Shown here piece after piece: positions 8,235-35,109 of a DNA stretch of 64,000 nt. The notes beneath the pieces were generated by a model that was given only the letters and a program-made list of their open reading frames with translations, had not been told where the DNA came from and searched no databases. Where the stretch lies: assembly GCA_044892525.1 (NCBI GenBank), contig CM097885.1, positions 186,434,001 to 186,498,000 of the forward strand. The letters run 5' to 3'. Every line of letters begins with the position of its first letter. The first letter of the stretch is position 1. Both the position numbers and the translations under genes were made by a program. The DNA comes from Schmidtea polychroa (lineage: Eukaryota).

Positions 8235-8270
8235 GGTTGATAACTTAAAATAAAAAGTGATATTTATACA

Positions 8271-8595
8271 AGTAGTGTCTAAAATAGGAATCCTAGGTCG
8301 CCCCACCCCAATATTCGCTCGTAAAAAAAACAAAACAAGTTTGTTTTTTTATCCTCGCTCACCCTTCGGGAGGGGATGGGGCGACCTAGGATTCCCATTT
8401 AGACACTACTACAAATCTATGTATATTAAAATAATAATAATTTAAATATACATGTATACAATGATTTAATAATTTTAAAATAAAAATAATTTATTTAAAT
8501 ACTCAAATTTTATTGGTAGCCAAGAATAATCAAGTTGTTATATATTATAGATGTAAGGATTTAATAATACAAGGATTTAATAGTTTTAATATACA
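8271..8595 (+). repeat. Polinton left TIR
   Basis: Reverse complement of 29515-29848, differing only by a few substitutions and indels. Confidence 0.9.
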
Positions 8596-8835
8596 TGTAT
8601 ACAATGATTTAATAATTTTAAAATAAAAATAATTTTAGTAATGTTGGGTACCCAAGAATAAAAAAATATATATTATACACATGCAATGATTTCAATTGGA
8701 AACAAGTTACCTCTTGAAAATTTCAATAATTATGGGAATTAGTAAATTTAATAATACTCAACAATGTAAAATATGAACTTGTCAAATTTTATATTATAAA
8801 AATAAACCACTAAAAAAAATTTCTAAAAATAAAAA

Positions 8836-11800
8836 ATGGCTACTTCAGAAAACTTCCATACCCAAGATTATTTTTGTGATTCATGTAATAGGAGTTTCAA
8901 ATCAAAAACAAGATTAATTTCACATAAAAAATCAAAAGATCATTTAAGGAAATCAAGTTTATTAGATGATAACAACTCTAAAATTTGTACCAAGTGTAAA
9001 GAAAGATATTTATTTTTAGGGTTTGATAAACATTTTAGAAATTGTATTGGAATAAAAAAAATAAGAGAATCATTTTCATGTCTCAAGTGTCATGAAGTCT
9101 TCAAAAGTAAATTTGAATTAAAGGAACACTCTAAAGAATGTGAAGATGAAGATGAAGATGAAGGTTGGGATGAATTTAATCATGCTGATGAATTTGGTAG
9201 TGAAGAAATTGGAGCATCCACAATTTATTTATATATTAAAATAAATCAACAAGAAATAAAAGAATCAATGGAAAATGCTATAAAAAAATTCAAAGGTACA
9301 AGGTTTAATATTATAAAATATAAAATAGGAATAAACGCAAAATATCGTCGACAAACTAATAAAACAAATCAAAATAACCCAAACTTTCTAAGATTTATGA
9401 TTCAAATTAATTATAAATATTTATATTAAATGAAAGGATTTATAAAAAACAATCAAAGAAATTATTCGAGCGTTGCAAGAATCCCAAGAACAATGTGAAC
9501 AGGAATTAGGAGAATCAAATTTAATTTCCCATTCTTTGAAAATATTAAAATAGATTATTGGAAAGGAAGACCCCCAGTTCCCAAATCATATATTCCAACA
9601 CCTTTTATTTCTAAACACATAATAAATGTTCAAAATAAAGATAATAAATTGTTCCTATGGGCAATACTATCAGCTTTACATCCTCAAGAACAACATTCTT
9701 ATCGAGTATCTAAATATCGACAATATGAACATGAAATTTTATTCTGGGATGGTTTTGAGCACCCAATGAAAATAGAACACATGCCAAAATTTGAAAGATT
9801 GAATCAACTTAGAATTAATATTTATGAATTAGATGGTAGCAAGGTTATACCAATTTATATTTTAGATCAAAATATGAATTCCTCAACTGTAACTTTTGAT
9901 ACAATAAGTTTATTAATATTAGAAAAGGTTTCAACTGATACAAATGATTTAGTTTCTCATTATGTTTGGATAAAATATTTTCAAAGTTTTATGAGATCTC
10001 GATCATCATCCTCTCATCGAGTACAAGGACACACTTGTGAAATATGTCTTTATTATTCAACTTCTGATGCTGTAAGAATAAAACATGATAGATTATGTAA
10101 AGATAATGAACCAGCATTAATTAAAATGCCAGAGAATCTTGAAATGAAATTTAAAAATTATTCAAATTTATTAGAATCTCTTGTTACAATTTATGGAGAT
10201 TTTGAAGCGATTAATAAACCACAAAATTTAGAACAAGAATATCTAAATGTCATAGAAAAAAATAAATTATTAGAATCGTGGTATGAATATGATTTGAATC
10301 AAGATTCTCAATCAAACCAAATAGAAAAAATGAAAAAGTTTCTCAAATTAAACAAGAAATTTTTTACAATAAAATTAACTGAACAACTTCCATCAGCATA
10401 TCATTTATTCATCAAAAGTAATTATACACAAAGAGAATCATATGAAATAGCATATCGAGGAACTTCTCCACAAGATACTCTAGATCATTTTGTTGCAAGT
10501 ATAAATTCCTTGGAATCATTCTTGTATAAAAAATTAAAAACTGATTTTGAAATGGATATTTCACCAGAAAAATTTACAGAATATGAAAATTCTACAATTT
10601 GTTGGATGTGTAAAGAAGAATTGAGAGGTTATGAAAATGTTAATAATCCAAAAGTTATAGATCATGATCATTTTAAAGAAATAAATAATTACCGATGGGC
10701 AGCTCATAATAATTGTAATTTAAGTTATAAAAAACTAAAATTTATACCAGTTACATTTCATAATCTGTTTGGATATGATATTTGTCTATTCATAAAATAT
10801 TTAGCAATTAATGCAAAAAACATTTTTAAAATTATTGGATTAACAAAAGAAAAATATAAATGTGTAGAATATGGATGTTTAAAATCCATAGATTCTCTAA
10901 ATTTCTTTACGGAGAGTTTAGACTCGATAGCAAAAACGATGAAAAGTGAAGATTTTTAATATACAATAGAGCATGTTTTGATAAAATATAATATTCCAAT
11001 TGAAGAATATAAAACATGTTTAGCAAAAAGAATATATCCATATGATTACATTGATTCATTCGATAGATATCAAGAAATAGAATTACCACCTCATGAAAAA
11101 TTTTATTCAGTATTAAGTAAATCAAATACATCAGATGAAGAAGATGCTCGAGCTAGAAAAATGTGGCAATTATTTAATTGTCAAACTATAGGAGAATATA
11201 CAAATGTGTATTTAAGTTTAGATGTTTATATTCTAGCTGATTGTTTTGAAAAGTTTGTAAAAACTTTTGCATTAAAAGCTTATAATTATATAACCCTACC
11301 ATCATTTTCTTGGGATATGTTATTATATAATATGATTTCTGAACCAGATAAAAGCATAGAATTATTATCAGATATCAACATGTTCAACATAATAAAAAAT
11401 AATATTCGAGGTGGAATTAGTTCTGGAATGGATGAAAGACGCATAACTGCACTCAATTATAAACATGTTTATAGAACTTTATTCAAAGATACAGATGAAC
11501 TACTTGTAGAAATAAAAACACAAGAAGAATATGAAATGGTAATTGAATGTATAAATAATCCATGTGAAATTTTATATATTGATGCAACTGCTTTATATTC
11601 AGGAATAATAACACAATAATTACCAATTTCTTCATTTGAATGGGTGGAAATACCTGAAAATGATCAAGCATTAAATAGATTAATAAACAAAATATTAAAT
11701 ACTCCCAAAGATTCAAATATTGGATATTTTCTAGAAGTTGATTTAAAATATCCAGATGCTATAAAATTCAAAACAAAACATTTCCCATTTGTTCCTGTAA

Positions 11801-11861
11801 AAAGAAAAATAGGAAAAGATGAATTATCCCCATGGCAACTTGAGAAAAATGAACATACTAG
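8836..11861 (+). pseudogene. Polinton protein-primed DNA polymerase B with N-terminal C2H2 zinc fingers and an endonuclease VII-like insert; truncated by the LTR insertion
   Basis: ORFs at 8836, 9649, 10978 and 11644 are all in one frame, broken by stops at 10957 and 11617 and by frameshifts near 9430-9540. Motifs: CDSC..H..H, SYIPTP..IINVQNKDNKLFLWAILSALHP, CWMC..IDHDH..YRWAAHNNCNL, DSLNF, IYPYDY, YLSLDVYILADCFE, IRGGIS, YIDATALYS, GYFLEVDLKYP. Confidence 0.9.
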
Positions 11862-12945
11862 TGTTAGGGATAGGCCTGGAGCCTTGTTGATAAAATAAAT
11901 AAAAATTACTAAAATTAGAAATAGTATAAATAAAAATTACTGAAAATAAAAGATAGGTTTAATTAATTACTATTAATAGAATTAAGTAGTATATAGTAAT
12001 ATTTGATATTACTGTTACTATATATAGTAATTATAAAATTGCTATTAATATAATAAATAATTAAAATATAATATAAATACGGGTTCAAAACGAAAACCAA
12101 GGGACGATAAAACATTGAGACACAATTTGGACGATAAATTAGAGAGAATAATTTGGAAAATTATTTAATTAAAGAAAACGTGATTAGAGAATCACTGTGT
12201 TATTTGTAATTGATTAAAGAATTTCAACGCTAGTCTAAATCAAAGAAAACGTGATTAAAGAATCACTGTGTTTATCAAAATTAAGTCAAGGAATTTGTCA
12301 ACAGTTCAAATTATATTTAAATATTTCATCGCACCAGACGACATTCCGATTCAAATTTCATATCGATTTCAAACTTGAAAAGTGACTATAAATTGACAAA
12401 CAGAATAAACAAGAGTCAGTAAGAAAATCTCTAGAGAAAAATTGGAACAGATTTGTGAACGAAAAACAGAAAAGGAGCCATTAATTTAGACAAGGTAAAA
12501 GGAGTTCATTATTTGTGTTGTGTAAGGATAAATTATTATCCTTGTGAAGTGAATTAATTAAGCGAACACAAAGCACCGATAGCGGCTTTCGTGTTACCTG
12601 GTAGCCCCAAAATCAGCCCTCTTTCTTTACCGTCATCTTTCCAATTTATTTAGCGATCGTTGTGCTACACAGGAGCCATCGATCTCTTGTAGGCTGTGGT
12701 AAACAGTAAGGATTAATAAATCCGTTTTCTTGTATTCTTTGCACATATATTATAAATTCCTGTTGTAAATTATTAAATATATTTTTGTAAGAAGAGAAAG
12801 AGTTTGTTTTTAATTCAGTGATTTAAACTTATACACGCAACCACATTAAATATAAAGTATTTATATTTATTTTTATATATTTAGTTATTCTATTTAACCT
12901 TTGGAGTCTTTAAGATCTGTAGTCCCCGTTTTTTCGATCTTAACA
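11862..12945 (+). repeat. 5' LTR (about 1084 bp)
   Basis: Starts TGTTA and ends TAACA, followed by ttt and the PBS. Its first 253 bp recur at 26070-26255 plus 27490-27556 with two mismatches. Confidence 0.85.
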
Positions 12946-12948
12946 TTT

Positions 12949-12966
12949 TGGTGAGCCCGACGTGAT
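12949..12966 (+). promoter_or_regulatory. Primer-binding site, tRNA-Trp type
   Basis: TGGTGAGCCCGACGTGAT matches 17/18 the complement (TGGTGACCCCGACGTGAT) of the 3' end of vertebrate tRNA-Trp(CCA) as I recall it. It lies 3 nt after the LTR end. Confidence 0.85.
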
Positions 12967-13084
12967 ACAATTTACGGGGGGAATAAGAATTTTATTTATA
13001 AAAGGCAAACATCTTTTTTGAATCATTGAGTTAAGAAATAGGAGAGTAATAAATTTTAGACCAGACAATAGAAATCAGCAAATA

Positions 13085-14150
13085 ATGGCAGAGATAAATA
13101 ATTTACAAAATTTAAACGAGAATAATTTACAAAATAATAATGTGCCAGTAGCTCAACCACCAGCGGTAGACTTTATGAGATACCCAACAATTCCGATTAA
13201 ACCATTTAGTGGAAACCCAGGGGAGTTTCCAGAATTTATGTCCGAATATTTTCAGTTAGCCAGAGCATTAGGATTCCCCGAACCGGTAATGATTTTGAGA
13301 TTACCTTTATAATTAAAAGGGATGGCGCGGGAAATATATAACGATGTTATAATAGCCAAGCATCCAGTTGAATGGAATTTTGCGATTAGTGTTACAAAAC
13401 AGAATATTACCGGGGGATGCAACTAGAGTGCTAAGACAACAGTTTTATAACAGGCAACCAAATTCGGGTGAGCATGTTGGGGAATTTTCATATCAAATAA
13501 TGATGTTGGCAGAGAGAGCCTTTGGCAATAGGGCAGCCTGGAATGATGCAACTAGAGCATTAGTGAAAGATCAGTTTTGGTCAGGGTTATCGTCAGCAAT
13601 GAGAAATGCACTCAGTTTACACATAGGAGATAATTTAGAGGAATTAACTCGCAAAGCGTGTTTAATTGAAAGTAGCATTGAAAAGTCAAATAATTTTGCA
13701 ATTAGTAGCAATAAGTCAGACATTGAGTGTTTTAATTGTCACAAAAAGGGACATATGTCAAAAGATTGTAAAAGTAGGAACAATTCTCCAGGGGATAAAT
13801 TATGTACCAAGTGTGGGAGAAATAATCATGTGGCATCAAACTGTAGAATTTCGGACCTAAATTGTGAGAAATGCAAGCGCAAGGGACATGTAGCGTCAGT
13901 TTGTAAAGTTAGTTTTGGGGGGAATAATTCGAATAATGATAGTAGAAATAGAAGCCCCGATAGGAATTTTCGTGGTAATAATAATAACAATAACTTTCAG
14001 AGTAGAAATAATAATTTTAATAATAATATAAAAAGGGATGAAGTAAATTCGGGGGGTAAAAATTAATGTCATAAGTGTGGAAAATTTGGTCATATTATGC
14101 GTTCATGTCCACAAAATCAGTTATCTAATAACAATGGTAGTGGCAACAAT
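13085..14150 (+). pseudogene. gag: gag (capsid-like region plus four CCHC zinc knuckles)
   Basis: PFSGNPGEFPEF, LPL*LKGMAREIY and QPNSGEHVGEF are capsid-like. Knuckles: CFNCHKKGHMSKDC, CTKCGRNNHVASNC, CEKCKRKGHVASVC, CHKCGKFGHIMRSC. There is one frameshift near 13370-13430 and stops at 13310 and 14064. Confidence 0.85.
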
Positions 14151-14936
14151 GGTAATAATCGATCAAAGCCGACAACGTTTGCAGTGAATTCAGATCACAA
14201 ATTAACGTATTTGCAGCAGCTTGAATTAGAAATTCAAGAAGAGAGAAACAGGTTAGCAAGGCTAACAACAAATGAAACTGATGGGTATGATGAAAATGAA
14301 GCTGTTTATATGACGTCAGCCAGAATAAGGCGAAATAAAAATAATTATGTAGAACTTGAAGTGTTGATGCTTCAAGAAAGTCCACAGGAGGACACAGAGG
14401 AAAAGACTATGGTCATAGAACCAGAGGTCTGTGAGGGTTTACAGGTTTCACCCAGGAAAAATCTAGTGGCTATGGCCATGGAGCCAGAAGCCAACAGAGA
14501 AATAGAAGGTTTACCTGTTTCACCAGTTAAAAATCGTAAGGCTATGGACATGGATCCAGTAGCTAATGTAATTGTTCCAACAGAAGTTTTGGAAAAAAGA
14601 TGGGCTTCGGTCACTGAGCCGGAAGTTCTTATAGCCACATCATCCATGCGAGGTGAGTGTGGTAGCGAACCAATAAAGGTTAGAGAAGCATCGAAAGAGT
14701 AAAGAAATCCCATCGATGACTGTAGAAAAATATTATTACGCAAGAGCGTATGGCAAAGAGAAATGAGACAGAAATTAGAAAATATTCGTTTAAACCCCGT
14801 TAATGAGAATGAGGTTGACAAAATAATGGATATCATATCAGAGTTAGACAGAAATGAGGAATATTATCCAGAATTGAGAGAAATTCTGAGAAATATTGGC
14901 CTAAATTGGAAACAAAGAGAGAATCTGGAGGATTCT

Positions 14937-15146
14937 AAAATTTTTGTATCTTTCCCAAAGGGTTGTTTTCGTAGATATACAATTAACCCAAGTGAAAAGG
15001 TAGAAGCATTGGCAAAGAGAGTTTCTGTGGTAAAACCTCAATTGAGATGCAAACTATATTTATTGGGAGAAAGATTATTAGAGGGAGAAACCCTGTTAGA
15101 TTGTGGTATACTACCAGGGAAACATATGGTTATAAAAGCAAGGTTT
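14937..15146 (+). pseudogene. Ubiquitin-like domain 1 within the Gag frame
   Basis: KIFVSFPKGCFRRYTINPSEKVEALAKRV...LYLLGERLLEGETLLDCGI aligns almost without gaps to ubiquitin [29 protein letters not shown]...LIFAGKQLEDGRTLSDYNI. Confidence 0.75.
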
Positions 15147-15467
15147 CACAAGGAAACTGTTACAGTAGTGGACTTGGATAATGTTCTTACAATAAGCGAG
15201 ATAGAAATTGATCAATTAAATCAAATATCAGCCGTACCACATAGATTGGGAATCGAGCTGATGAAAAACCAAAGAGATGGGGAAGCCATTAAGATGATAA
15301 TGGATTGAATACTGGAGTTGCGAATCCCAGTAGATACTCTTAGAGAGATAATGCCATTGGTGGTGCCTTTAGTAAAAGAGACATCACAATTTCAGACACA
15401 AGCAAAGATGCTGTTGATTAAAAATGGACATGCTATCAGACATTTGGAAGGTAGACAAGGTCTAGTG

Positions 15468-15674
15468 ATGTTAGATATCAGGATACCCAGGAGAGGACAC
15501 CTGATACAACAATTCTCATGTTACCATAGGGTAAAGAAACTGAGAAAAAGAATATCAGAAATAGTAAAAGAATCATTCCTAATAATGATACATGGTTGTC
15601 AGGTGGATGACGACGAATTCCTAGTAGATGTTGGATGTTTTCCCAATGAGGAAACAGTTGTATTAATATTACTG
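15468..15674 (+). pseudogene. Ubiquitin-like domain 2 (more divergent)
   Basis: MLDIRIPRRGHLIQQF..RVKKLRKRI..LIMIHGCQVDDDEFLVDVG..TVVLILL shows the beta-grasp pattern TV..LK..I / L...G..L.D...L.D.G. Confidence 0.5.
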
Positions 15675-16595
15675 GTAGAGTTTCCAGAGGATAAATGGGC
15701 AACCTTGAGATTGCCAGATAATGCTGAAATGGAGGATGAAACTGTACATCCCGAGCAAAAATAAGTAGATGGGGATATTCATCAAGAACCCGTAACTACA
15801 GTAGATTTAGATGAAGAGATAGATAAATATCTCAAGGAACTTGATAACACTGAAGACGAGTTGGTCGAACTATTTCCTACAGAGGAAGATAATGAAGTAC
15901 AATTAAATCGAGATGAAACAAACATCGGAGCTAGTACATCGCGACAAGTCGAGCCACCAAAAATAAGGGTGAGCCCGAAATTAGTCGAGAATAAAAAGAA
16001 AAAGGAGAGAAGGGGTAGACCGAGGAAAAGTCAAATGAACCCGCCTCCAAGAGAACTTCTAAAACCAGTTACAATAGAAAATGTAACAAAGTAGGCTCTA
16101 GCAGGGATAGCTAGCCAAATCGATAAAAGCGTTGAAGACGCTAGTGATAAAACAGAAACATGGAAAAGACTGAATCAAATCTTACGACTGATTAAGCCCG
16201 ATTGGCAAATCAAAAAAGATAAAAGTGTTAATGTTGACAAAATTGCAGAAAAAGTCAAGAAAGCTATGGAAAAGATTCCAGGAAGCACCACAGAACAGGA
16301 GATGTTCGAAGTAGCAGGACAATTCATAGATGAAGGCCTGACGAAAGGGAAAATGATAACGATTCTAGCCTTAATGTTTAAAAATGCATTGAGCATAACT
16401 AGAGATGATTCGTCGAAAATCCCAGCAGCCATAGATAGGCTGGCTGATATCATCGAAGTGAATTTCGGAACATGAATGACTGAGCACAAGTTTTGGGAAA
16501 AAAAAGAAACGAAAGGAAATTATGAATTGAATGAAGAGTTGTTGACAGAAAATAGTTCAAGTAGTCCACGGGGAACAGGTGGATTTACTAGTTGG

Positions 16596-18430
16596 ATGAT
16601 GATGTTGTTGGTAATGATGTGAGTATTGCGACAGACAAATTCCTTAACGGCATATGATTGTAGCGAACCAATACTATCGCGAATCTACTCATTAGTAGAC
16701 ACAGTGGAATGCAAGGAAGCATATCCAGATAAAGTTGCAAAAAGGGAAGACGTGGAATATCATGTTTATCAGCAAACAGAGTTTTACAGAACCAGAGTGA
16801 GGGAATGTCGAATCCAGAGAGCGACGTTTGAATATTACTGTGGATCGAATAGTTATTCAGCATTTTTAGGAGCTAAACTCATTCCCATACCATTAATCAT
16901 CCCACCAGAGGATTGTGTAAATGCTTTTCGGTCAAAAACAGTTAAAATAGATCATGAGGTAACAATTACCGCAGAAGAAGGGAAAAGGTTGGGTATAACT
17001 ATTACCCCGGGAGGACCGATAGCAGATAATGGATCTTGTCATGGTAGAAAGAAAGTAAGAGGTTCTAATGTAGTAAGTTATGTGGTAACAGTTGAGGATT
17101 ACACAGTAGAGCTGATCGAGTACGAAGGAACTTTCGAAGTATCCACGGGAAAAATGATGTCTCATCCAAAATGCAACGTGAAATATGGTTATTGTAAAAC
17201 CAGTTTGCAGTATTAACGTACCAATCAATGAGAGATTTTTGTGATTTAGGATACCTGAAAAAGGTAGTATTTTCAAGGTTAGATGGGAAAAGCTTTACGT
17301 CTCAAGATTCACAACAAAGTGGTTTGGCAGACAAGATAGCTCACAAAACGAAAAAGGAAGTGGGACCAGAGAAAAGCACAGCAGTAGTATTAGTCTCAAA
17401 GGATCCAACAGATGCGATTCGTTTAGTCAGAAAGAAACAGACAACAAAATGTGGCGTACCAATATTTGAAACCAACTACAAGGGAATATACTTAGCATAC
17501 AAATATGTTCCGGCAGCAGAATCATTACATCTATCAGATATTAAAGTAGCCAAGTATATCAATAATAAGATTGATTTCTTGTATCATGATCTGCAGAAAC
17601 AATTATTAGATGTGTATCAGGAAGTGATCCTGAACGACTGTCGTTTAAATCGGGAAATAATACGAAATAGATTAGCAATATCTATAGCTAATCCTGATTT
17701 AATAATGCCAATGTTGACAGAGGAAGGAACATTTGGTAGAATTTTGGGTGAAGCAATTTATAGCTATCAATGTAAAGCAATAGAGGTAGAAATCACCAAA
17801 TATGATCGATGTACATTGGAGCTACCTGTGAAATATAAAGGAAAATTGAGATTCCTGATGCCAGTATCACACCAGTTATTAAAGGAGGATACCTCACCAT
17901 TAACAGCAATTTGCAATCCAGCAATGTCACCATTATACAAAATCAACAATATTTGGATTTCGTTGCCAGACAGAAAGCCGCCTTCAAAACCAGTTGAAGT
18001 GCTTCAAGCGACAAAGTTAGAAACTAAAATGGAGTTTCAACCATTAAACGAGATGTCAAAAAGCGGAGTATATACTCCAGAAGATATTGAAGAAGCTCGG
18101 AGAGCAATTGTATTTCCCCAAATCAGAGATCGGGGAGTGACAGAGATAATAACAAGAATTTATCAATCATATGATGGAAAACCGGACTATAATTTATTAT
18201 TTGGACCAGAACATTACAAACAAGCTGCATCAAATGTAATACGGAAAATCTGGGGTAGATTTACAAGCTTTGGCATTTTTGTAGCAGGATGTTCAGGTAT
18301 ATATGCAATAGTGATGATATTGAAAATAATCATATCGCAATTGTTTTCCACCTATAGCATCTTCAAGATCCGGGGATGGTCTTGGAAGTTGCTACTAGGA
18401 ATGTGTCCAGTTTGTGCAGATTTTGCAGTA
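16596..18430 (+). pseudogene. Env-like glycoprotein of chuvirus G type
   Basis: Hydrophobic leader WMMMLLVMM*VL, then LTAYDC..YSLVDTVEC, C.I....YYCG, NKIDFLY, DCRLNRE, GEAIYSYQCKAIEV, RCTLELPVKYKG..FLMP, C.....PLY..NIW. C-terminal hydrophobic helices FGIFVAGCSGIYAIVMILKIII follow. There is a frameshift near 17220. Confidence 0.7.
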
Positions 18431-19019
18431 TTTCATCATCATAATAAAGAGATTAAGAGAATGAAGAGACAAACTATAAAGAAGCATGAGTTAATAATGT
18501 ATGAATCTAGTCATCGAGACGATGACAATTCTGACGAGGGAGGTAACCTAGAGGGCTATGAGACCTCAGACAACACCTCAATGAAGCCAGACAACAAAAA
18601 ACCGAAATTTCAAAATTTTGAAAATAGTACTTTACAACAGTACCCTGTTAAAGCAAAAAGGAGGAAACGGCAGGAGTGGCCTGTGAATTATTTGTCACCA
18701 TACGTGGGTAGAAAAAAGATAATACCAGAACGAGTCGAAGAGGAAATGCTAAAGAGGTTCGAGTTTAGAACAAATACAGATATACTACCATCTACCTCAT
18801 ACCCAACGTATAAAATGAAGTTCGAGACAATGCCACCCTTGGGTACATCAGTATTGGAGATGGTACCGAAATATCCATTAAGCACGTTGGAACGGCTAAA
18901 GGAAGAGTATAAAGATGAAATAAAATCAGAAAATGACAAAGATAGTAATGATCAACAAAAGTTCAGAGATAATATTAGAGGAATCTCAACAATATTAATG
19001 GTCAATATGGGTAAAAAGA

Positions 19020-19572
19020 CTCATAAACCTACGATTAAACTAAAAGTTAACAGGCATACGGTACATGCCATTATTGTTTCAGGATCAGATTTGACATTGA
19101 TCGAAGCAAATTTATTAAATGAAAAAGAATTACAACAATAGTGCCGACATTAACTGTGGCATCGGGAGCAAATGGACAACCTATCAATGTTATCGGAACA
19201 TTAGATTGTGAATTAAGGTTGTGTGATCAAAAATTCAGACACGATATCAAGGTCACTAGACAATGTATGGCAGAATGTATCGTGGGGATGGATATATTGA
19301 AAAAGCTAAAAGATATTGTATTCGATTGGGCAACAGGCGAATTAGTGAAAATGACGGGTAGAAAACGGAAAACCTACAGTGTGGATGTAGTGTTTTTGGA
19401 TAGAATGGTGACAATACCACCGAGGACCGAAACAGTTTGTTTTGTAGCAACACATCAAGAGGTGGAAGGAGATGTTATTTTCGAACCGAGTGAGCAGTTC
19501 GTAAATAGGTATAAAACACCTATGGTGCAAAACTTGGCAACAGTACGGGGAGGAAGAATCCCGATTAGATAA
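19020..19572 (+). pseudogene. Aspartic protease (active site mutated) and post-protease beta domain
   Basis: KPTIKLKVNRHTVHAIIVSGSDLTLI (D[S/T]G has become VSG), a frameshift at 19141, then GANGQPINVIG and CIVGMDIL. Confidence 0.8.
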
Positions 19573-19593
19573 ACAAATCTAGCGAGTAAATCA

Positions 19594-20988
19594 TTGAGAT
19601 TATACCCAGAGACTAGAGTGGGTAAAGTAATACAACTATCTAACATGCAGAAAGAGTCTGAATCGATATTATCAGTAGAAGAGGATGAACGAGATCCTGA
19701 TATCGAATATTACGACGCACCGAGCTGCGATAGTAAAGCCTTATCTAGAAAAGAGAATATCAGAGTTAATCAATTGTTACGGAAATATGACCAAGTTTTC
19801 GCAAAACACGAATATGACTTAGGGCAAGTTAATATTCTAGAGCATGAAATTAAACTAACAGAAAATAAACCGATAAAAATACGCCCATACAGAATACCTC
19901 AAAGTAAACAAGGGTCCGTAGATAAACAAATCAAATTAATGCAAAAATATAATATAATCAGACCCAGTAAATCTCCTTATTCCTCACCTTTGGTGGTTGT
20001 AGCTAAAAGAGACGGCTCAGTCAGATTATGCAATGACTATAGGAAATTAAATGAACAAACAGTTAGTGATAATCACCCGCTACCTTTGCTAGATTACATT
20101 TATGATAAAATGAAAAATTCAAAGTTGTTTACTGTGATGGATGCACAGAAAGGTTTTTATCAAATAAAGATGAGCGAAGACTCAATTCCTATGACAGGAA
20201 TTTCTACAAGTAGTGATCATTTTGAATACTTAGTAATGCCGTTTGGATTAAAAGGAGCCCCTCCAACTTTTCAGAGGGCAATGAATATCATGTTGATGGA
20301 TGCACATCACGCAATGGTATATATAGACGATATTATCATCTTCTCGGAAGATTTAGATAAGCATTTGGAACACCTTGAGGACATTTTCAAACGATTGATT
20401 ATGGCAAATCTGAAAGTAAAGCCAAGCAAATGTAAATGGGCAGAATCGGAAGTGATTTACGTGGGTCATGTAATATCACACGATTGCGTAAGACCAGATC
20501 CGGCTAACACGGATAAAGTAAAGAATTTCCCACAACCAGTGAATGTGAAACAAATCAAAGGATTTCTAGGGTTGACGGGATATTACCGGAAATTTATACG
20601 AAATTTTTCAGCAATTGCTTTTCCATTAACTACCTTAGAAAAGAAAGGTATAAAATTTTTATGGGAAGAAGATAAGCAACAGGCATTTGATAAGTTAAAG
20701 GATGCACTATGCAAACCACCAATTCTACGATTTCCAGACTTTAAAAGACAATTCATGGTGATGACCGATGCATGCACAAGAGGTATAGGTGCAGTTTTGG
20801 GACAGAAAGACGAAATTGGTGATGAGTACGCAGTAGCATATGCAAGTCTTGGATTGAAGCCACACGAGAAAAGTTATGCAGTAATAGAATTGGAAGCATT
20901 AGCGTTAGTGTTTGCAGTGGAAAAATTTAGTCATTACCTATGGGGCAGAAAGGTAATTTTCTATACGGATTATAGACCATTGCAATGA
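19594..20988 (+). pseudogene. pol: Reverse transcriptase and RNase H
   Basis: RPYRIP, SPYSSPLVVV, RLCNDYRKLN, MPFGLKGAPPTFQR, YIDD, FLGLTGYYRKFI, TDACTRGIGAVL, ELEALALV, YTDYRPL. The TGA at 20986 replaces the W of PLQW. Confidence 0.95.
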
Positions 20989-21033
20989 CTGTTAAAACAT
21001 AGAGACGAAGCATCAAAATTAGTAAGATGGGCA

Positions 21034-22359
21034 TTGAGATTACAGCCATATAATATCGAAATTGTATATCGTAAAGGTAAAGCTAATGGTAATGCAGACA
21101 CATTATCACGAATGGAACTAGAGCCCGAGTTAGAAGATATAAAAGAAGGAAGATTAGAAGGAACTATCTTCATGCTAACAAGAGAGGCTAACACTTTGAG
21201 CGATTTAGTAGAAGCACAGAAAAATGATGACGAAATCAATATGATCAGACAAGCTATAGAAGCAAAGGCCATACCAAATGAATTCCAGAAATATTGGGAG
21301 AAACATAAAGATAAATTCATATTGGAAGAAGGTCTAATCAAATACGTGGAATCAAGGGATAATGTAATATTAGTGCCAAAGAAATATAGAGAATCACTAT
21401 TATTACAATACCACGATGGAGCACTGGGAGGACATCTCTCAGCTAGACATACACTGTCAAGATTGAAAATGAAATACTTTTGGCCAGATATGAAAGATGA
21501 TGTTAAAAAGTGGTGTCAATCGTGTAAGATATGTATAACCAGAAGGAACACAGGCAGGAAACCACATGTTCCATTGAAACCAATGCCAGTACCGTCCTCG
21601 CCAATGGAGATGACTGCTATGGACGTACTAGAGCCGTTTAAAGAATCAAAGATGGGAAATAAATTTATCATTGTATTTTGCGACTATTTAACGAAGTGGC
21701 CCAAAGCATTCCCAATTCCGAATCATAAGGCAGACACAATTGCCAGAATCTTTGTAGAACAAATTGTATTTAGATATGGTGTTCCGACAAAATTGCTTAC
21801 CGACAGAGGAAAGGATTTCATGCGTAATTTGTTAAAAAGTATAAATGATTACTTTGGTATTTTAAAGTTAAATACCTCACCATACCACCCACAGACGGAT
21901 GGATTGGTAGAAAGGTTCAATGGAACCTTGGCAAACATGTTATCATCATACGTAAACTCAGGTCAGACGGACTGGGATGTACACATGCCATCTTGTTTGT
22001 TTGCGTATAGAAATGCTGTTCATTCAGTAACAGGAGAAACACCTTTCTATTTGATGTATTTAAGGCATAGCAAGATGCCAGTGGATCTTATATTTTATCC
22101 GAAAGCGTCACAGAATTGTGATGAGGGAAATTACTTATTCGAGATGAGAGAGAGAATGCAAGAAGCCTGGGAGAAAGCAGGTTTGAACATTCGTTATAAC
22201 CAAGAAACAATGAAGGAATATCATGATCGTAAAGCGAAGGACCATGGGTTTTTGGTAGGAGATTATGTCATGTTAGAGGGACATTACAACAAAAAAGGTT
22301 TATCTCCAAAATTAATGAGAAATTACAAAGGGCCGTATCAAATTTTGAAAGTCACATAA
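21034..22359 (+). pseudogene. pol: Integrase (HHCC, DDE, GPY motifs)
   Basis: HDGALGGH..CQSCKIC, AMDVLEP, LLTDRGKDF, PYHPQTDGLVERFNGTL, KGPYQI. In frame with RT upstream and with the 22372 ORF downstream. Confidence 0.95.
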
Positions 22360-22371
22360 ACCAATTTAGTC

Positions 22372-23499
22372 TTGCAGTTAGTGGCAAACAGAAAAGCAGA
22401 ACCGATAATGGTTCATGCAAACAGATGTAAAAAGATAGCCGCACCAGAAAAGGAGAAACCAAAATCCGATATTGATGAATTCGAAATAGACAAGAAATCG
22501 AAAAAGAAAACGTTAGAATCATATAAAAGTATCCTAAAGGGACAACCGGAACGATACCCTTTACGATCTCGGCAAATCCCAAAAACAGTTACATTTTTAG
22601 CAGTGATTAGTTGTGTTATGATGATTGGACAGGCATTCGAGGTATTCACACCTAAAGCCAGTCAACATCCAGATATCGAATATCAACGAACAGATGGAGC
22701 ATTCAGATTTCATTTAACGAATATGCAATGGCATAGATATGATCTATATTTGGTAGCTGCTGAAAGAGGGATATCATTTCACTTGAATACATGGGATCGA
22801 GTAAAAGTAATAGAGGGACTGATGCCGAATACAAGTTATCTATTAGAAATCAAGACATTCTTTGCAGACCCAAACGTTTTCGCAGACGGAGGAGATTGTG
22901 TAGATAAAGCATCATGGATTTTGAAGACTGAAAAATTTACCAAAAAAGTAGAGATTTCATATCTCGGGCAGATAGTAAGATTTACTCATCCACTGTGGAA
23001 CAGAAATGACACATCTTCCACTCACGATTGGAGGACGAATAATAAAATTGCGCTAATCGTCATATTAGAAAACGACCAGCGAGTCGAGAGATTAGTGCTC
23101 AACCATGCATATCTAAGTAGAAGATGGAAAATCAAACCAGATACCGTGACAAAGGCGAATATTTCGTATTTGGAATTTACGGAGAGAACCGGTTGGTATA
23201 CAATATATCAAGAAATAGTAAATCTAATACCTCCCACAAAGGGAGAACTAACTAGCAAAGAAGGAAAGGCTAGATTAGTGAGTATTCCTGGTTGTAAAGG
23301 AATAAATGCTTTGGATTGGTTTAGTATTAGAAAGGTAGCGAGTGTAAAACAGCCCCGCATAACTAAATTAATTAATAATTGTAGTTGTCAAAATACGTTA
23401 AAGGGGACAACGAGAGATAAAACGTCAACTTGGCTATTGTTAATTATGTTAGGGGGAGTAATTTGCATGATTTTAATTTTGATATTAACCACCCTATGA
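22372..23499 (+). pseudogene. Integrase tail followed by signal peptide, FN3-like ectodomain and C-terminal TM segment
   Basis: RYPLRS (a typical integrase tail) is followed by hydrophobic VTFLAVISCVMMIGQA, FN3-like IEGLMPNTSYLLEIKT and terminal TWLLLIMLGGVICMILILILTTL. Same frame as the integrase, separated by one TAA. Confidence 0.55.
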
Positions 23500-23762
23500 A
23501 TGTTTAGATTAAACATGCGGGATATTCGTTATTGGGAAAATATTTACGAAACCGAGGTATAGGGGGAAAGTCTCACCATATACTAGGAAGTGTAAATATA
23601 TATAGTTATTTATTTTATATGTTATTTATATTAGTATGTAGACTATTGTGGGCTCCAATGAGCATCTGTAAAATCAGACATCAGCGTATGTCGACTTTGG
23701 TTACCCTGCGAGGGTCTATCACGAAAGGGATAAAAGCTGTTAATTATTTTATTTTTAGAAAA

Positions 23763-24944
23763 ATGAATTATAACAGAGAACCAAAGCCACCAGTCAAAGC
23801 AAATCGACGACACCCATTGGCAACGTACAATTCCCAAACTCGAGTTGAAACTGAAGTGTATAGCACCTATAAAGAAGAGTATGTATATCGGTTCATCGGA
23901 ACCACGGTCGCAGCAAAAATGAATCACCTCACCTCAAACTATTGGTATTATCCCAGGAGAGTGGATATTCCAAACGATTTCAAATTCCCAGGAGGGCCTC
24001 GAAGACAAATGATGATAACGGTTATAAATAACCAAGGTAGATTAAAATTGGCGGAACTATGTAGGGAGTATGGTTCATGTCCGAAATTGGAAAACATTTG
24101 GATCCATGCGATCAATAGACCATTCACTGTGCTTATGGCGGGATTAGAGTTACCTGTTGAATTAGAAAAACAGTGTACTCTGGAGATATACCACGCTGAT
24201 GGACGAGAACGGAATATTATGATCCAGGCAGCGGCGGTGGACACCATAATCGCAGTAGAAATCTTGGATTTCAGGAAGCCATACTCTATAGTTAGCAAAA
24301 ACGAGCCAACTTGGATTTATAATGTAAATGAAGCTGATATACAGCAGTGTAAATCATTTGTGAGGAAGAAGTTAACCAAAGCCGAGGAGGACGAGGCTAC
24401 AATTTTCATATCGGTAGGTTTTGCCAAATCCCGAATCGAATTAAAGGAGACAATTATCCAAATCGCAATTATGGATATGAGAGGAAATAATTTATTGAGT
24501 GCGGTAGTGACCCCCAGAGACCCTGTAAAACACTACCAAACGCACCAATACAAGCTAAAGGAACCTGATATTAGAGGAAACCTCGACGAAGATGATTGTT
24601 ATCATCTGATAAGAAAGATCTGCGATAAGAAAATACTTGTAGGTATTTTGCTTAAAGATCTGATCTCGGTAGCCAATCTACCAGTGCAGCGAATATTGGG
24701 TGTTCGTGACCTTTCGGCAAAAAAACTATTGGAAACCAGAGGAGTCCCAAAGATTCATGGTCATTACAGATTGGGATTCCTGACAAAGACTTTCCTACGT
24801 ACGGTTCCCGGAGAGCCAAGGAATTTAGTGGTCACCAATGAGGCACTGGCGATACGTGCGGTTTATTTACATATCCGAAACGAATGGTTAGACCACGATA
24901 CCTCAGGAGGAATTCATTTCCGCAACTACAGCAGCGATAGTTGA
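23763..24944 (+). CDS. Accessory ORF with a C-terminal degenerate DEDDh (REX4/ISG20-like) exonuclease domain
   Basis: Intact frame; the likely ATG is 23763. The C-terminal part IQIAIMDMRGNNLLSAVVTPRDPVKHYQT, KILVG, RDLS, RLGFLTKTFL, NEALAIRAVY..EW follows the REX4/ISG20 pattern but lacks the catalytic acidic residues. Confidence 0.6.
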   Translation: MNYNREPKPPVKANRRHPLATYNSQTRVETEVYSTYKEEYVYRFIGTTVAAKMNHLTSNYWYYPRRVDIPNDFKFPGGPRRQMMITVINNQGRLKLAELCREYGSCPKLENIWIHAINRPFTVLMAGLELPVELEKQCTLEIYHADGRERNIMIQAAAVDTIIAVEILDFRKPYSIVSKNEPTWIYNVNEADIQQCKSFVRKKLTKAEEDEATIFISVGFAKSRIELKETIIQIAIMDMRGNNLLSAVVTPRDPVKHYQTHQYKLKEPDIRGNLDEDDCYHLIRKICDKKILVGILLKDLISVANLPVQRILGVRDLSAKKLLETRGVPKIHGHYRLGFLTKTFLRTVPGEPRNLVVTNEALAIRAVYLHIRNEWLDHDTSGGIHFRNYSSDS

Positions 24945-24951
24945 ACAGGAA

Positions 24952-25824
24952 ATGACACAGAAGAGGAGATTACCTGAGCAACCATCTACATCAGAGCAAC
25001 CCCAGCCCAAGAGGAAATCACCTGTGGATCTACCACCGCCTCCAGCTACATCTATTGGAGAAGATGAATATGAAACATGTGCTAGTGAAATGGAGACAGC
25101 AAAATCACCTAAACAATCATCGAGAGCTGCCTATCAGCCAAAGGATAAATCGGATAATGCGGTCAGGAAAGAAATTTCAGAAGGAGGCAAGGTGAAAAAG
25201 ATTTTAAAGAAAATGTTACCCATATAAAGAGACAAGTCGAAGCTAAAGTTGAAGAAAGTTGTTAAACCGTCGGAAGGAACGACAAAAGAGACACCCAGCA
25301 GTATGGAAGATAAGAAGAAACCTCAAAAGATATTCAGCGAACCAGACGATGACATTATGGAAGTTGCGTTTCAACCTTCGGTTAAGGAGATGCAGGAAGC
25401 AATAAAGGTTAAATCTGAACCTGTGGTAAAGCAGAAAATGTTGAAGATTGCCAAGGAGAATATCATCAAGAAACCAGTTTCGGTTGATGTGGACGGTTTC
25501 GAACCAATGTGGTACAAACGTCCGGATAGTAAATGGAAACCCAGAGCTAAGGAGTATGACTGCCAACCAGTCACGAGAATGGCAGTCAATAATAATCAAA
25601 AATATGATGTTTATGACGTAGACGGGATCCCTTACGTGGTGTCTACAGTCATATTAACGAGTGCTCTGGATGGTAAGCCTTTGGCAGTGAGCTTTGAGCC
25701 GGAAGTCTTGCAGAAGAGGAAAAAGAAGTTGCTGCAGCAGTACGTCGTTGCAAATAGCTACAGCACGAAGGAGTTGCACCTTTACAAAGTTCCAGACCCA
25801 GATCTCGATGATCTGGATATCTAA
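24952..25824 (+). pseudogene. Second accessory ORF (about 290 codons; basic, low-complexity N-terminus), unknown function
   Basis: ORFs 24952-25227 and 25249-25824 share a frame, separated by a single TAA. It lies just upstream of the PPT and 3' LTR. Confidence 0.55.
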
Positions 25825-26052
25825 TCCAAGAGCGTTGCCACCCAACATGTGTCGCCGAATTCAAAATGTGTATAAAATGACTTAACTATTATTTGATTTG
25901 TGCTATTCAGTGTTTTGACATTTATTATTTGTGATCTGAAACATTCATTTTATGTTTTGTCTTATTTGATTAATTTTTATGTTTTTATTGTAATGCTGTT
26001 TACCAAAAGCCTTTCTTTAGTCTTGTTTTTTCTTGTTTTCGAGACGAAAATC

Positions 26053-26069
26053 TTTTAGGGGGTAAGACT
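26053..26069 (+). promoter_or_regulatory. Polypurine tract
   Basis: ttttagggggtaagact lies immediately before the TG of the 3' LTR at 26070. Confidence 0.65.
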
Positions 26070-26255
26070 TGTTAGGGATAGGCCTGGAGCCTTGTTGATA
26101 AAATAAATAAAAATTACTAAAATTAGAAATAGTATAAATAAAAATTACTGAAAATAAAAGATAGGTTTAATTAATTACTATTAATAGAATTAAGTAGTAT
26201 ATAGTAATATTTGATATTACTGTTACTATATATATTAATTATAAAATTGCTATTA

Positions 26256-27487
26256 CAGGGTTATTCATTATTATAAATACTTTTATGCAAAATTATAAAT
26301 ACTTTTATTCATTATTATAAATACTTTTTGTTTGAACCGCATGTCGCGCAAAATTAGAAAACCATTGACTTTGGATGGGTATAATTTCATAATAAGGCTT
26401 TCCAATGATGTTTCAATGACACTGAAAAATATATCGGAAATTACAGGATATTCCATAACAACAATAAGAAGAGCTATTGATGATCATCGCCAACAACGAG
26501 TATTTGTTAGCTCGGGCACAAAATTAAGGAACAAAATTAAAGAAAGAAATGCGGTTTTTACTACAGAAGAGTTGGTGATTCATAATTTAGTTTCATGCAA
26601 TAATCTTTTGACGCAATCAGAAATTTCAGAATCAGTACAGATTAGTACAAATAAAAAATTGTCGCAGTCAACAGTCTGCAGGAAATTAAAAAAATGCAAT
26701 ATAACGAGAAAAAGAGTTTCTTTAATTCCTGAGGAAAGAAATAACCAGGATAAAATTGACGCACGATCGATTTATGCCTCTGAAATTTCTAGGTTTGAGC
26801 CTGAATCATTAATTTTCCTGGATGAAACAGGACAACACAACACGCACATACGGATATTCAATTAAAAACTCCCAGTGTTATACAAACGTTAGAGCGAATA
26901 AGGGAGTGAACAATAGTGTAATGTGTGCTATTTCTGTAAGAGGCCTTGTCGAGTACGAAATAATTACAGGGGCATATAATTCAATTAGGTTTATTGAATT
27001 TATTGAGACAAAATTGGTTCCTTACTTTGCTGCGCACTCAAATTCTATTTTGATCATGGATAATTGTCGTTTTCATCATTCGCGTGAGGTTGCAAATGTT
27101 TTTTCTCGCAATAACATATCTTATAAATTCTTACCTGCATATTCGCCGCAGCTTAATCCAATTGAAGAATTTTTTTCTATGTTAAAATCAAGATTTCATA
27201 GGGATAAAATTGATCAACCAACTTCTACCATCAGAGAAAGATTGGCCAGAATATTTTGGATGGACTTTTCCGAGCCCTGTAATGGATTTTATATAAACAT
27301 GCGACGTTGGATAGAAAAAGCCAGGGCCAGAGAACAGTTTTTATAAATGTTAATTAAATTTCAAGTTTCAAAAGTGCTTTTTTATTTTGAATAAAAGTAT
27401 TTATAATAATGAATAAAAGTATTTATAATTTTGCATAAAAGTATTTATAATTTTGCATAAAAGTATTTATAATAATGAATAACCCTG
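26256..27487 (+). mobile_element. Tc1/IS630-family DNA transposon
   Basis: TA duplication at 26254-26255 and 27488-27489; the empty site gctat-TA-atata is visible in the 5' LTR. TIRs start CAGGGTTATTCATT and end AATGAATAACCCTG. Confidence 0.95.
26332..27346 (+). pseudogene. DD34E transposase with one frameshift
   Basis: HTH region, FLDETG, IMDNCRFHHS and FLPAYSPQLNPIEEFFS, with 34 residues between D and E. Frameshift near 26830-26860. Confidence 0.9.
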
Positions 27488-27556
27488 TAATATAATAAAT
27501 AATTAAAATATAATATAAATACGGGTTCAAAACGAGAACCAAGGGACGATAAAACA

Positions 27557-29514: not shown

Positions 29515-29848
29515 TGTATATTAAAATTATTAAATCCTTGTATTATTAAATCCTTACATCTATAATATATAACAATTTGATTATTCTTGGCTACCAATAA
29601 AATTTGAGTACTCAACATTATTGAAATTATTTTTTTTTTAAAATTATTAAATCATTGTATACATGTATATTTAAATTATTATTATTTTAATATACATAGA
29701 TTTGTAGTAGTGTCTAAAATGGGAATCCTAGGTCGCCCCATCCCCTCCCGAAGGGTGAGCGAGGATAAAAAAAACAAACTTGTTTTGTTTTTTTTTACGA
29801 GCGAATCTTGGGGTGGGGCGACCTAGGATTCTCATTTTAGACACTACT
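29515..29848 (-). repeat. Polinton right TIR
   Basis: Ends ...tagacactact and is followed by the TATACA TSD. Inverted copy of 8271-8595. Confidence 0.9.
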
Positions 29849-33428: not shown

Positions 33429-33730
33429 TTCTTATTGCTGTACGACCAATTTCTGAGACTGAGGATTGGCTCTCTTGGACAGCCTCGACAAATTATTGCA
33501 CATCACGATTAGTAAGCAAAATGTAAATTAGTAATTATTGGAAAATTTTAATTAACAATTTTAATCGAGAACTAATTACATTAATACATTACGCAAGATT
33601 GTGGATAGATCTGTTACAAAATTATTAAATCTTATTATTATAAGAATTTGTCTTAAAATAATAACAAAAACCAATGGACTATAACCATAACCATAAAGGC
33701 CAAATTCGTTGCGATAAACAGAATTTATTA

Positions 33731-34969: not shown

Positions 34970-35109
34970 TAAATATTTAATGAGAAATTAATAATCACAA
35001 TTCCTAACAATTCGGAAATATTTGAATTAATAAAAAAATAAAATAAATCTTTTCGAAATAATAATAAATCAAGGCAGTGAGATCATTAGAAGGGAATCTC
35101 AATGAAAGA

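What the first reader, a model, noticed from the sequence alone, without database searches (positions are those of the whole stretch)
14937..15674. Tandem ubiquitin-like domains inside a retroelement Gag frame
Seen: segment 14937-15146 aligns nearly without gaps to ubiquitin (IFV...G, PS[ED].[VI]E, L...G..L..G.TL.D..I). A second, weaker beta-grasp pattern lies at 15468-15674. Neither ends in di-Gly. Known: ubiquitin on Gag promotes ESCRT-dependent budding in retroviruses, and tandem Ubl proteins such as ISG15 act in antiviral defence. Inference: captured Ubl domains may act as built-in budding signals or decoys, which would fit an enveloped element.
Basis: partly seen in the sequence, partly recalled or inferred. 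Interest (0 to 1): 0.75.

Follow-up and report, generated by a model that had tools for sequence, protein, structure and literature searches.

The report
Duplicated adaptor unit in Burro-like retroelement
Both segments are predicted to fold like ubiquitin, but each is half of a duplicated "helix bundle plus ubiquitin-like" unit in a retrovirus-like element of a kind already known from planarians, where it likely works as a docking adaptor for host proteins rather than as a budding signal.

Summary
Both segments model as beta-grasp folds, lack di-Gly and are under purifying selection in sister copies. They are not an ISG15-like di-Ubl. About 105 residues separate them, and each follows a helical bundle; the two units are one old duplication. 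The bundle's best whole-domain matches are TFIIS-N (TND) domains, including PNUTS and the LEDGF integrase-binding domain, but HEAT repeats tie with them. Downstream lie an AT-hook, a Bcl-2-like domain, a signal peptide, in-frame Env and Pol. This is a compact (15 kb) relative of planarian Burro elements, for which a Ubl before Bcl-2 and in-frame env were published in 2019 (PMC6431247). The window copy is decayed, with a stop between the two Ubls. A budding role is poorly supported: the L8/I44 patch is not kept and no late motif is conserved. Best guess: a captured adaptor for host transcription or chromatin proteins (about 0.4). The scan had a note on the giant Burro of this genome, but none on this unit.

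The parts
11862..12945 (+). 5' LTR (TG...CA), 27% GC
   Evidence: Direct repeat with 26070-26255; aligns to the LTR region of a sister copy whose two LTRs are 1078 bp; GC
12949..12966 (+). Primer binding site; the match to the tRNA-Trp 3' end is recalled, not tested
   Evidence: Sequence directly after the LTR
13085..14114 (+). Gag capsid and four CCHC zinc knuckles, broken by a stop, a frameshift and a second stop
   Evidence: Pfam zf-CCHC E 9e-11; translation
14712..14912 (+). Helical bundle of unit 1 (TND-like by homology to unit 2)
   Evidence: Helices in the model; hhalign to the unit-2 bundle, probability 94.1, score 39.6 against at most 12.5 in 30 shuffles
14937..15146 (+). Ubiquitin-like domain 1, no di-Gly
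   Evidence: Pfam ubiquitin E 0.002; Z 10.1 to Hub1
15180..15200 (+). Candidate site for the element's own protease between units 1 and 2 (families A and B only); inferred
   Evidence: Same motif class as at the CA/NC, PR, RT and RH/IN borders, at the same place in A and B; pattern written after seeing the sites
15204..15440 (+). Helical bundle of unit 2, TFIIS-N (TND)-like fold; in-frame stop at 15306-15308 in this copy
   Evidence: Model pLDDT 86.5; Foldseek PNUTS TND TM 0.74, probability 0.89, E 1.6; VIA Elongin A TND Z 8.8, tied with HEAT repeats
15465..15680 (+). Ubiquitin-like domain 2, no di-Gly
   Evidence: Z 12.1, rmsd 1.5 A to SUMO1; profile hit to ISG15
16008..16028 (+). AT-hook-type motif RRGRPRK at the end of an acidic linker
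   Evidence: Found in families A and B, P0010, P0011 and P0014; KGRPKK in the giant element; absent in families C-F, which keep a basic cluster there
16098..16502 (+). Bcl-2-like domain, with an in-frame stop in this copy
   Evidence: Profile against the PDB: Bcl-2-related A1/Bfl-1 E 2.9e-4; Pfam Bcl-2 E 0.0045 in a sister copy
16584..18450 (+). Signal-peptide-like stretch and in-frame Env (Monjiviricetes-type fusion glycoprotein) with its transmembrane helix; broken here
   Evidence: Pfam PF24664 E 3e-62 and 4e-19; hydropathy
19140..23496 (+). Protease, RT, RNase H, integrase, then a second hydrophobic segment, an unidentified domain and a C-terminal transmembrane helix
   Evidence: Pfam RVT_1, RT_RNaseH, rve, Integrase_H2C2; protease placed by its motif in the translation; hydropathy; no PDB hit for the tail domain
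23508..25821 (+). ORF2, broken here; includes a weak ISG20L2-like exonuclease match
   Evidence: E 0.49 over about 147 profile positions; a lead only
26070..27556 (+). 3' LTR, truncated and interrupted by a DDE_3 (Tc1-like) DNA transposon at 26251-27492

Best explanation
The two predicted ubiquitin-like folds are the second halves of an anciently duplicated accessory unit (helical bundle plus Ubl) in a compact Burro-type gypsy element, and the unit likely works as an adaptor that docks on host transcription or chromatin proteins through its predicted TND-like bundle. Shown: the element's anatomy; the duplication; retention in six families of this genome and in the giant Burro-type element; purifying selection; no di-Gly. 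Predicted: both beta-grasp folds and the TND/HEAT-like bundle. Inferred: the polyprotein is cut by the element's protease after the nucleocapsid and, in families A and B, between the units, and by signal peptidase before Env. This would free unit 1 as a soluble protein and leave unit 2 joined to the AT-hook, the Bcl-2-like domain and a membrane anchor. The bundle would bind acidic helical motifs (TIMs) of host elongation or chromatin factors, the Ubl would be a second, non-conjugated docking surface, and the AT-hook or basic patch would give DNA binding or nuclear entry. The purpose would be to favour the element's transcription or integration.
For: Duplication: unit 1 against unit 2, hhalign probability 99.1, score 111.6 against at most 15.1 in 30 shuffles. 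First and second units sort apart on a tree, 2 label changes against a shuffled mean of 6.4, with weak deep support. Retention: families A, B, C, D, F and pol-less E keep both units at 19-63% identity between families, while integrase is 72-88% identical. The giant element has one clear unit (E 7e-12; probability 96.7). Selection: distinct-variant dN/dS for bundle 1, Ubl1, bundle 2, Ubl2 is 0.17, 0.24, 0.16, 0.30 in family A (13 copies) and 0.28, 0.21, 0.08, 0.14 in family B (15 copies), all p<0.01; the preceding linker is 0.86 in A. Between A and B, bundle 2 (54%) is better kept than either Ubl (30%, 46%). Fold of the bundle: the Foldseek rows with probability 0.7 or more are all TNDs (PNUTS 0.90 and 0.89, LEDGF IBD 0.77 and 0.72). 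VIA lists Elongin A, MED26, LEDGF, PNUTS, IWS1, HRP2 and LW domains at Z 7.4-8.8. A three-sequence profile of the host's own TNDs scores above all shuffles, weakly (16.7, 14.5 and 15.4 against maxima of 12.8, 13.1 and 12.1). TNDs are binding platforms for acidic helical motifs, found in transcription regulators (PMC9987994, first sixth of the text). LEDGF combines AT-hooks with such a domain (10.1101/2024.06.29.601340, passages).
Against: No binding partner was shown. The TND call is not significant by E-value (Foldseek E 1.2-1.7, hhalign probability 2-4), six HEAT-type or other helical repeats rank above the first TND in VIA (Z 9.0-9.9), and Pfam Med26 is hit by 0 of 15 members. The TxIG and C-terminal Trp signature seen in the host TNDs is missing. 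The AT-hook is absent in 4 of 6 families. No candidate protease site was found between Ubl2 and the Env signal peptide, so unit 2 may stay membrane-bound. The protease motif was written after seeing the sites, so its excess over shuffles (7 against a mean of 1) is inflated, and it finds none of the expected borders in families C-F. Purifying selection shows only that the domains are needed, not what for; the counts use open-frame copies only and do not correct for transition bias.
Confidence: 0.4

Rival explanations
1. Degradation or sequestration adaptor: the bundle captures a host restriction or death factor, and the Ubl hands it to the proteasome or to a ubiquitin/SUMO enzyme, in the manner of Rad23, midnolin or Rad60 (roles recalled).
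For: Integral Ubls of these proteins are among the tied structural matches. The neighbour is Bcl-2-like, and Burro1 is reported to carry a RING-BIR anti-apoptotic region (PMC13465017, passages; primary paper not held). Ubl2 keeps an acidic DDDE[YF]L loop and a basic helix in most families.
Against: The I44-type surface that many proteasome receptors read (recalled) is polar in Ubl2 of families C-E and in most first units. A shared fold shows no function.
Confidence: 0.22
2. Built-in budding signal: the Ubls recruit ESCRT to Gag before the protease cuts them off.
For: The element has Env, no conserved late motif that could do the job instead, and the units lie in the Gag-containing polyprotein. 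Fused ubiquitin can replace late domains (PMC2958808, passages).
Against: That effect needs L8 and I44, which are not kept. It does not explain why the helical bundle is duplicated with the Ubl and is as constrained. Family E has lost env and pol yet keeps both units in an open frame, though it could be complemented in trans.
Confidence: 0.1
3. Structural or folding role only: the units are spacers or solubility domains, or build part of the particle between the capsid and the membrane anchor.
For: Unit number varies (one in P0010 and P0011, two in A-F, one clear and two weak in the giant element). Sequence divergence between families is high.
Against: Surface motifs of Ubl2 are conserved across distant families, and bundle 2 is about as constrained as the capsid in family B (0.08 against 0.14).
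Confidence: 0.13
4. Apoptosis module: the bundle is a death-fold (CARD or death domain) mimic that works with the Bcl-2-like domain.
For: It lies next to a Bcl-2-like domain, and Burro elements collect apoptosis domains.
Against: The model has four or five helices in a HEAT/TND arrangement; death folds have six (recalled).
Confidence: 0.08
5. Cleavage signal for host deubiquitinases, as with ubiquitin insertions in pestivirus polyproteins (recalled), or a conjugatable ISG15-like decoy.
For: Ubls inside a polyprotein; ISG15 is the best sequence-profile hit.
Against: No LRGG or other di-Gly end in any of the 12 sequences scanned.
Confidence: 0.03

Closest known systems
Burro / GYPSM1 giant gypsy-like LTR elements of planarians (PMC6431247, section 7 read whole; Jurka 2007 and Grohme 2018 only as cited there)
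   Same: One polyprotein with Gag and CCHC knuckles, a Ubi2/SUMO-like domain before a BCL-2-like domain, env in frame between BCL-2 and protease with hits to mononegavirus fusion proteins, then PR-RT-RH-IN. A giant element of this genome carries the same bundle-Ubl unit.
   Different: About 15.3 kb with a 3516-aa frame, against more than 30 kb and 4873-5140 aa. No MATH, BIR, ankyrin or dUTPase Pfam hit. Two full units. The helical TND-like partner, the duplication and the AT-hook are not mentioned in that section. RT is only 43.5% identical to the giant element.
TFIIS N-terminal domain (TND) proteins: PNUTS/PPP1R10, Elongin A, MED26, IWS1, LEDGF/p75 IBD
   Same: Predicted fold of the bundle (TM 0.6-0.74, rmsd 2.3-2.5 A); an AT-hook in the same chain, as in LEDGF.
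   Different: 13-19% identity, no Pfam Med26 hit, signature residues missing, fused to a Ubl, no PWWP domain, binding unknown.
ISG15, FAT10 and OASL tandem ubiquitin-like domains
   Same: Two beta-grasp domains in one chain; weak profile match to the ISG15 C-terminal domain.
   Different: Domains separated by a folded bundle; no di-Gly; they arose by duplication inside the element.
Gag-ubiquitin fusions that drive ESCRT budding (PMC2958808, passages)
   Same: A Ubl in the same chain as Gag in an env-bearing element.
   Different: L8 and I44 are not kept; the Ubls lie hundreds of residues after the nucleocapsid, behind candidate cleavage sites.

Membership tests
Ty3/gypsy LTR retrotransposon (Metaviridae-like) | LTRs, PBS, gag, and the order PR-RT-RH-IN | tested here: met
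Burro-type planarian elements | env in frame between a BCL-2-like domain and the protease in one polyprotein | tested here: met
   Sister copies with one open frame of 3516 aa
Burro-type planarian elements | Ubl/SUMO-like domain upstream of BCL-2 | tested here: met
   homologous unit in the giant element
Burro (strict: giant, over 30 kb, with MATH/BIR/ankyrin cargo) | Giant size and extra cargo domains | tested here: not met
   A sister copy spans about 15.3 kb; no such Pfam hits. So it is Burro-like, not Burro1-4.
Burro-type planarian elements | RT clade shared with the published Burro1-4 | not tested
   No reference Burro sequence was available; only 43.5% RT identity to a giant element of this genome
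Ubiquitin-like (beta-grasp) domain | Beta-grasp fold | tested here: met
   Predicted model; Z 12.1 and 10.1, rmsd 1.5 and 1.8 A; Foldseek E down to 4e-9 for the two-domain model
Conjugatable ubiquitin-like modifier (ubiquitin, ISG15, SUMO) | C-terminal di-Gly | tested here: not met
Ubiquitin as ESCRT signal | L8/I44 hydrophobic patch | tested here: not met
   against the requirement in PMC2958808; the I44 column is well aligned, L8 loosely
TND (TFIIS-N / LW domain) | Right-handed five-helix bundle like a pair of HEAT repeats | tested here: inconclusive
   Four or five helices; TNDs are the best Foldseek matches by probability but tie with HEAT repeats in VIA
TND (TFIIS-N / LW domain) | Sequence profile (Pfam Med26 PF08711) at cut-off | tested here: not met
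   0 of 15 members; none of the 26 genome matches to PF08711 coincides with an element copy listed here
TND (TFIIS-N / LW domain) | Binds TND-interacting motifs | not tested
   No test against a host motif was run
Bcl-2 family | BH1/BH2-region homology | tested here: met
   E 2.9e-4 to A1/Bfl-1, with many Bcl-2 and Bcl-xL chains at E about 0.01; divergent, below the Pfam cut-off
Death-fold domains | Six-helix death fold | tested here: inconclusive
   The model shows four or five helices

The most novel reading that the evidence does not exclude
These retroelements captured a host transcription-elongation docking domain (TND) and encode their own LEDGF-like tether or Tat-like activator. A TND-Ubl protein, released from the polyprotein and aided by an AT-hook, engages host elongation or chromatin factors, and possibly the element's integrase, to steer integration or drive transcription from its AT-rich LTR.
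Probability: 0.2. Interest if true: 0.8.

Novelty: new variant of a known kind. Interest (0 to 1): 0.48.

Why it matters
A Ubl in Burro elements has been in print since 2019 without a function. This work shows that it is half of a two-domain unit that was duplicated and kept across distant families, which gives a defined fragment to test. If the helical half is a working TND, a retroelement would carry the same kind of docking domain that lentiviruses borrow from the host (LEDGF). That would bear on integration targeting and on how these elements persist in, and perhaps benefit, planarian stem cells. The compact families with long open frames are easier to study than the 30 kb elements. If the bundle is only a generic HEAT-like spacer, the finding is a modest annotation update.

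Tried and rejected
Word-indexed protein searches with alignments A1 and A2 found nothing; weak evidence, since the full HMMER search found 14 relatives (12 element-like, 2 polyubiquitin-like). ESM Atlas gave only sub-0.9 leads to ubiquitin, Rad60-SLD and CLU_N clusters. The bundle profile found no TND by sequence in the PDB, and the viral structure library gave no match at E 0.001 or better. No death-fold domain was listed among the shown rows; this is not an exclusion. A predicted complex of bundle 2 with the element's integrase was not folded: no verdict. I looked for a host gene with bundle plus Ubl as donor: the ten host TND loci examined have no convincing match to the unit profiles, and a search with P0014 returned only element-like places; introns could hide a donor. 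My early guesses that the bundles were CARD or death domains, and that the tail after integrase was fibronectin type III (no PDB hit), were dropped. The RT identities to the giant element (18-27%) look mis-anchored and were set aside for the BLAST value. SIM-like motifs were seen in only some families and are not used. No Rfam or tRNA hit in the window. Grohme 2018 and Lee 2026 are not held.

Full report
What the element is. The finding lies inside an LTR element at about 11862-27556. It has a 5' LTR (11862-12945), a primer site, and a 3' LTR that is truncated and split by a DDE_3 DNA transposon. The coding order is Gag with four CCHC knuckles, an accessory block, a signal-peptide-like stretch, a Monjiviricetes-type fusion glycoprotein (E 3e-62), then protease, RT, RNase H and integrase, a membrane-bounded tail, and a second ORF. 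The window copy is decayed: seven in-frame stops between 14064 and 16622, one of them between the two Ubls, and frameshifts. A search of the own genome with 136 residues around Ubl1 scored 150 of 305 candidates. Of these, 76 are near-full matches at 75-100% identity (family A, the window included), 22 are partial, and 52 match at 34-37% (family B). Eleven family A places lie in open frames of 3513-3516 aa. One copy has identical 1078-bp LTRs and spans about 15.3 kb, so the family moved recently. The host is probably a planarian; this is inferred from the element type and from earlier scan notes.

Check of the observation. Ubl1 hits Pfam ubiquitin at E 0.002, below the cut-off; Ubl2 alone hits no ubiquitin family. 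I folded the region from an open-frame sister copy that is 96-97% identical in DNA, with a 16-row alignment. Mean pLDDT was 87.9. Ubl2 superposes on SUMO1 at Z 12.1 and rmsd 1.5 A, tied with many other Ubls, and Ubl1 on Hub1 at Z 10.1 and rmsd 1.8 A. No di-Gly end was found in 12 sequences scanned. Both domains are therefore real at the level of a confident model.

The unit is larger than the Ubl. Each Ubl follows a helical bundle of 70-85 residues. Unit 1 aligns to unit 2 over 142 columns at probability 99.1 (score 111.6, at most 15.1 in 30 column shuffles). The bundles alone align at 94.1 and the Ubls at 98.6; cross-pairs score at chance. On a tree of 20 units (4 rows left out as near-copies or fragments), first and second units need 2 label changes against a shuffled mean of 6.4, which fits one old duplication, but the deep branches are weak. 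Families C, D, E and F of this genome keep both units, at 19-25% identity to A for C-E. Library proteins P0003 and P0014 have two units; P0010 and P0011 have one.

Identity of the bundle. Folded alone (pLDDT 86.5), the bundle has no Foldseek match at E 0.001. Its high-probability rows are all TFIIS N-terminal domains: PNUTS (TM 0.74, rmsd 2.3 A, probability 0.89) and the LEDGF integrase-binding domain (TM 0.60-0.65). VIA places Elongin A (Z 8.8), MED26 (8.5), LEDGF (8.5), a yeast LW domain (8.0), PNUTS, IWS1 and HRP2 among helical repeats that score up to 9.9; for helical bundles such Z values may mean only a common arrangement. A profile of three host TNDs scores above every shuffle but at probability 2-4, and Pfam Med26 is hit by 0 of 15 members. 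I call it TND-like, probable but unproven.

Selection. I kept 13 of 17 family A loci and 15 of 21 family B loci, those with an open frame of 1100 aa or more. Counting each distinct codon variant once, dN/dS for bundle 1, Ubl1, bundle 2 and Ubl2 is 0.17, 0.24, 0.16, 0.30 in A and 0.28, 0.21, 0.08, 0.14 in B, all p<0.01. The linker before the units is 0.86 in A and 0.23 in B, and the capsid 0.05 and 0.14. These are simple counts without correction for transition bias. Family E (L048, L049, L050, L059) has a frame of 1323-1333 aa that runs from Gag through both units and Bcl-2 into the tail that follows integrase in family C. In the fetched stretches (9 kb for L048 and L049, 5 kb for L050 and L059) tblastn found no env, RT or integrase; the fifth locus tested, L060, has env and groups with family D. 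Changes within E are too few to date the constraint to after the loss.

Neighbours and processing. An AT-hook-type RGRP motif follows the acidic linker in A, B, P0010, P0011 and P0014, but not in C-F, which keep a basic cluster there. The next domain matches Bcl-2-related A1 at E 2.9e-4. A short motif recurs at domain borders in A and B, including after the nucleocapsid and between Ubl1 and bundle 2. It occurs 7 times in each against a shuffled mean of 1, but I wrote the pattern after seeing the sites, took the idea from note e1-7879936, and it does not find the borders in C-F. No site was found between Ubl2 and the Env signal peptide, so unit 2 may stay joined to the Bcl-2-like domain and a membrane anchor.

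Budding hypothesis. Budding driven by fused ubiquitin depends on L8 and I44 (PMC2958808, passages). Aligned to a ubiquitin-like repeat of P0007, the I44 column is never Ile in 20 units from other copies or in the window's two, and is polar or charged in 6 of 8 first units and in Ubl2 of families C-E. No PTAP or PPxY motif, and only isolated YPxL matches in A and B at different places, lie upstream of env. Budding is not excluded, but it explains neither the bundle nor the lost patch.

How it likely works. Shown: anatomy, duplication, retention, constraint, no di-Gly. Predicted: the folds. Inferred: proteolytic release, and an adaptor role in which the bundle binds acidic helical motifs of host elongation or chromatin factors, as TNDs do (PMC9987994, part 1 of 6 read), with the Ubl as a second docking surface. 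I give this 0.4, a degradation or sequestration adaptor 0.22, a structural role 0.13, budding 0.1, a death-fold mimic 0.08, and host-DUB cleavage 0.03. Whether the bundle binds the element's integrase is open.

What is known. Arkhipova and Yushenova 2019 (PMC6431247, section 7 read whole) already report a Ubi2/SUMO-like domain between MATH and BCL-2, and env in frame between BCL-2 and protease, in planarian Burro elements. Burro1 is reported to protect stem cells through a RING-BIR region (PMC13465017, passages; primary paper not held). In the listings of searches, I saw no paper that describes the helical partner, the duplication or a TND in a retroelement; I read only the papers named here. 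Grohme 2018 with its supplements, Lee 2026 and Repbase were not available and may contain such notes. The scan's own index had no look-alike of this stretch; its notes on ubiquitin spacers concern BEL/Pao elements and were not checked.

Verdict. The Ubl is a known feature of a known kind of element, and the budding reading is unlikely. The new part is the duplicated TND-like plus Ubl unit in compact, recently mobile families. New variant of a known kind; interest 0.48.

Noticed in passing
window 23508-25821; L002:1594-3918; L004:1586-3868: ORF2 of about 770 aa is kept in families A and B (40% identical in its core). Its second half weakly matches the ISG20L2 exonuclease (E 0.49) and seems to lack the acidic catalytic motif.
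   Followed up: partly
window 22550-23496; L002:640-1645; L073:2950-4029: After integrase come a second hydrophobic segment, an unidentified domain and a C-terminal transmembrane helix. Pol is thus flanked by membrane segments, and the tail may be a second surface protein. No Pfam or PDB hit.
   Followed up: partly
L048:276-4244, L049, L050, L059: A non-autonomous family with env and pol deleted in frame keeps Gag, both units, Bcl-2 and the membrane tail in an open frame of 1323-1333 aa. Its capsid is 95% identical to family C while its units are about 60% identical, which suggests recombination.
   Followed up: partly
L009, L010, L013 against L001: Mosaic divergence in family A: dS is 0.06-0.19 up to Ubl2 but 0.6-1.8 over the linker, Bcl-2 and Env, which points to a swap just after Ubl2.
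   Followed up: no
G000:C2 about 164-172.5 Mb (L062, L063, L065-L070): An expanded cluster of long-exon IWS1-like TND genes (about 15 matches; the name IWS1 is recalled from the sequence).
   Followed up: no
window 8833-11859, inverted repeats 8262-8655 and 29515-29857: The LTR element sits in AT-rich ORFs (C2H2 zinc fingers, then a stretch that recalls a Polinton-type DNA polymerase, not confirmed) inside a pair of inverted repeats.
   Followed up: partly
window 26251-27492 and about 33657-34994: Two related DDE_3 (Tc1-like) DNA transposons with similar terminal repeats; one is inserted in the 3' LTR.
   Followed up: no
window 49604-64000: A tandem array of at least ten nearly identical 1524-bp units with minus-strand open frames of 224 and 172 aa; no Rfam or tRNA hit.
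   Followed up: no
window 15804-15833 and like places in P0010, P0014, L085: An acidic amphipathic helix (DLDEEIDKYL type) in the linker after Ubl2 resembles a TND-interacting motif or an activation helix; it could bind the bundle within the same chain.
   Followed up: no
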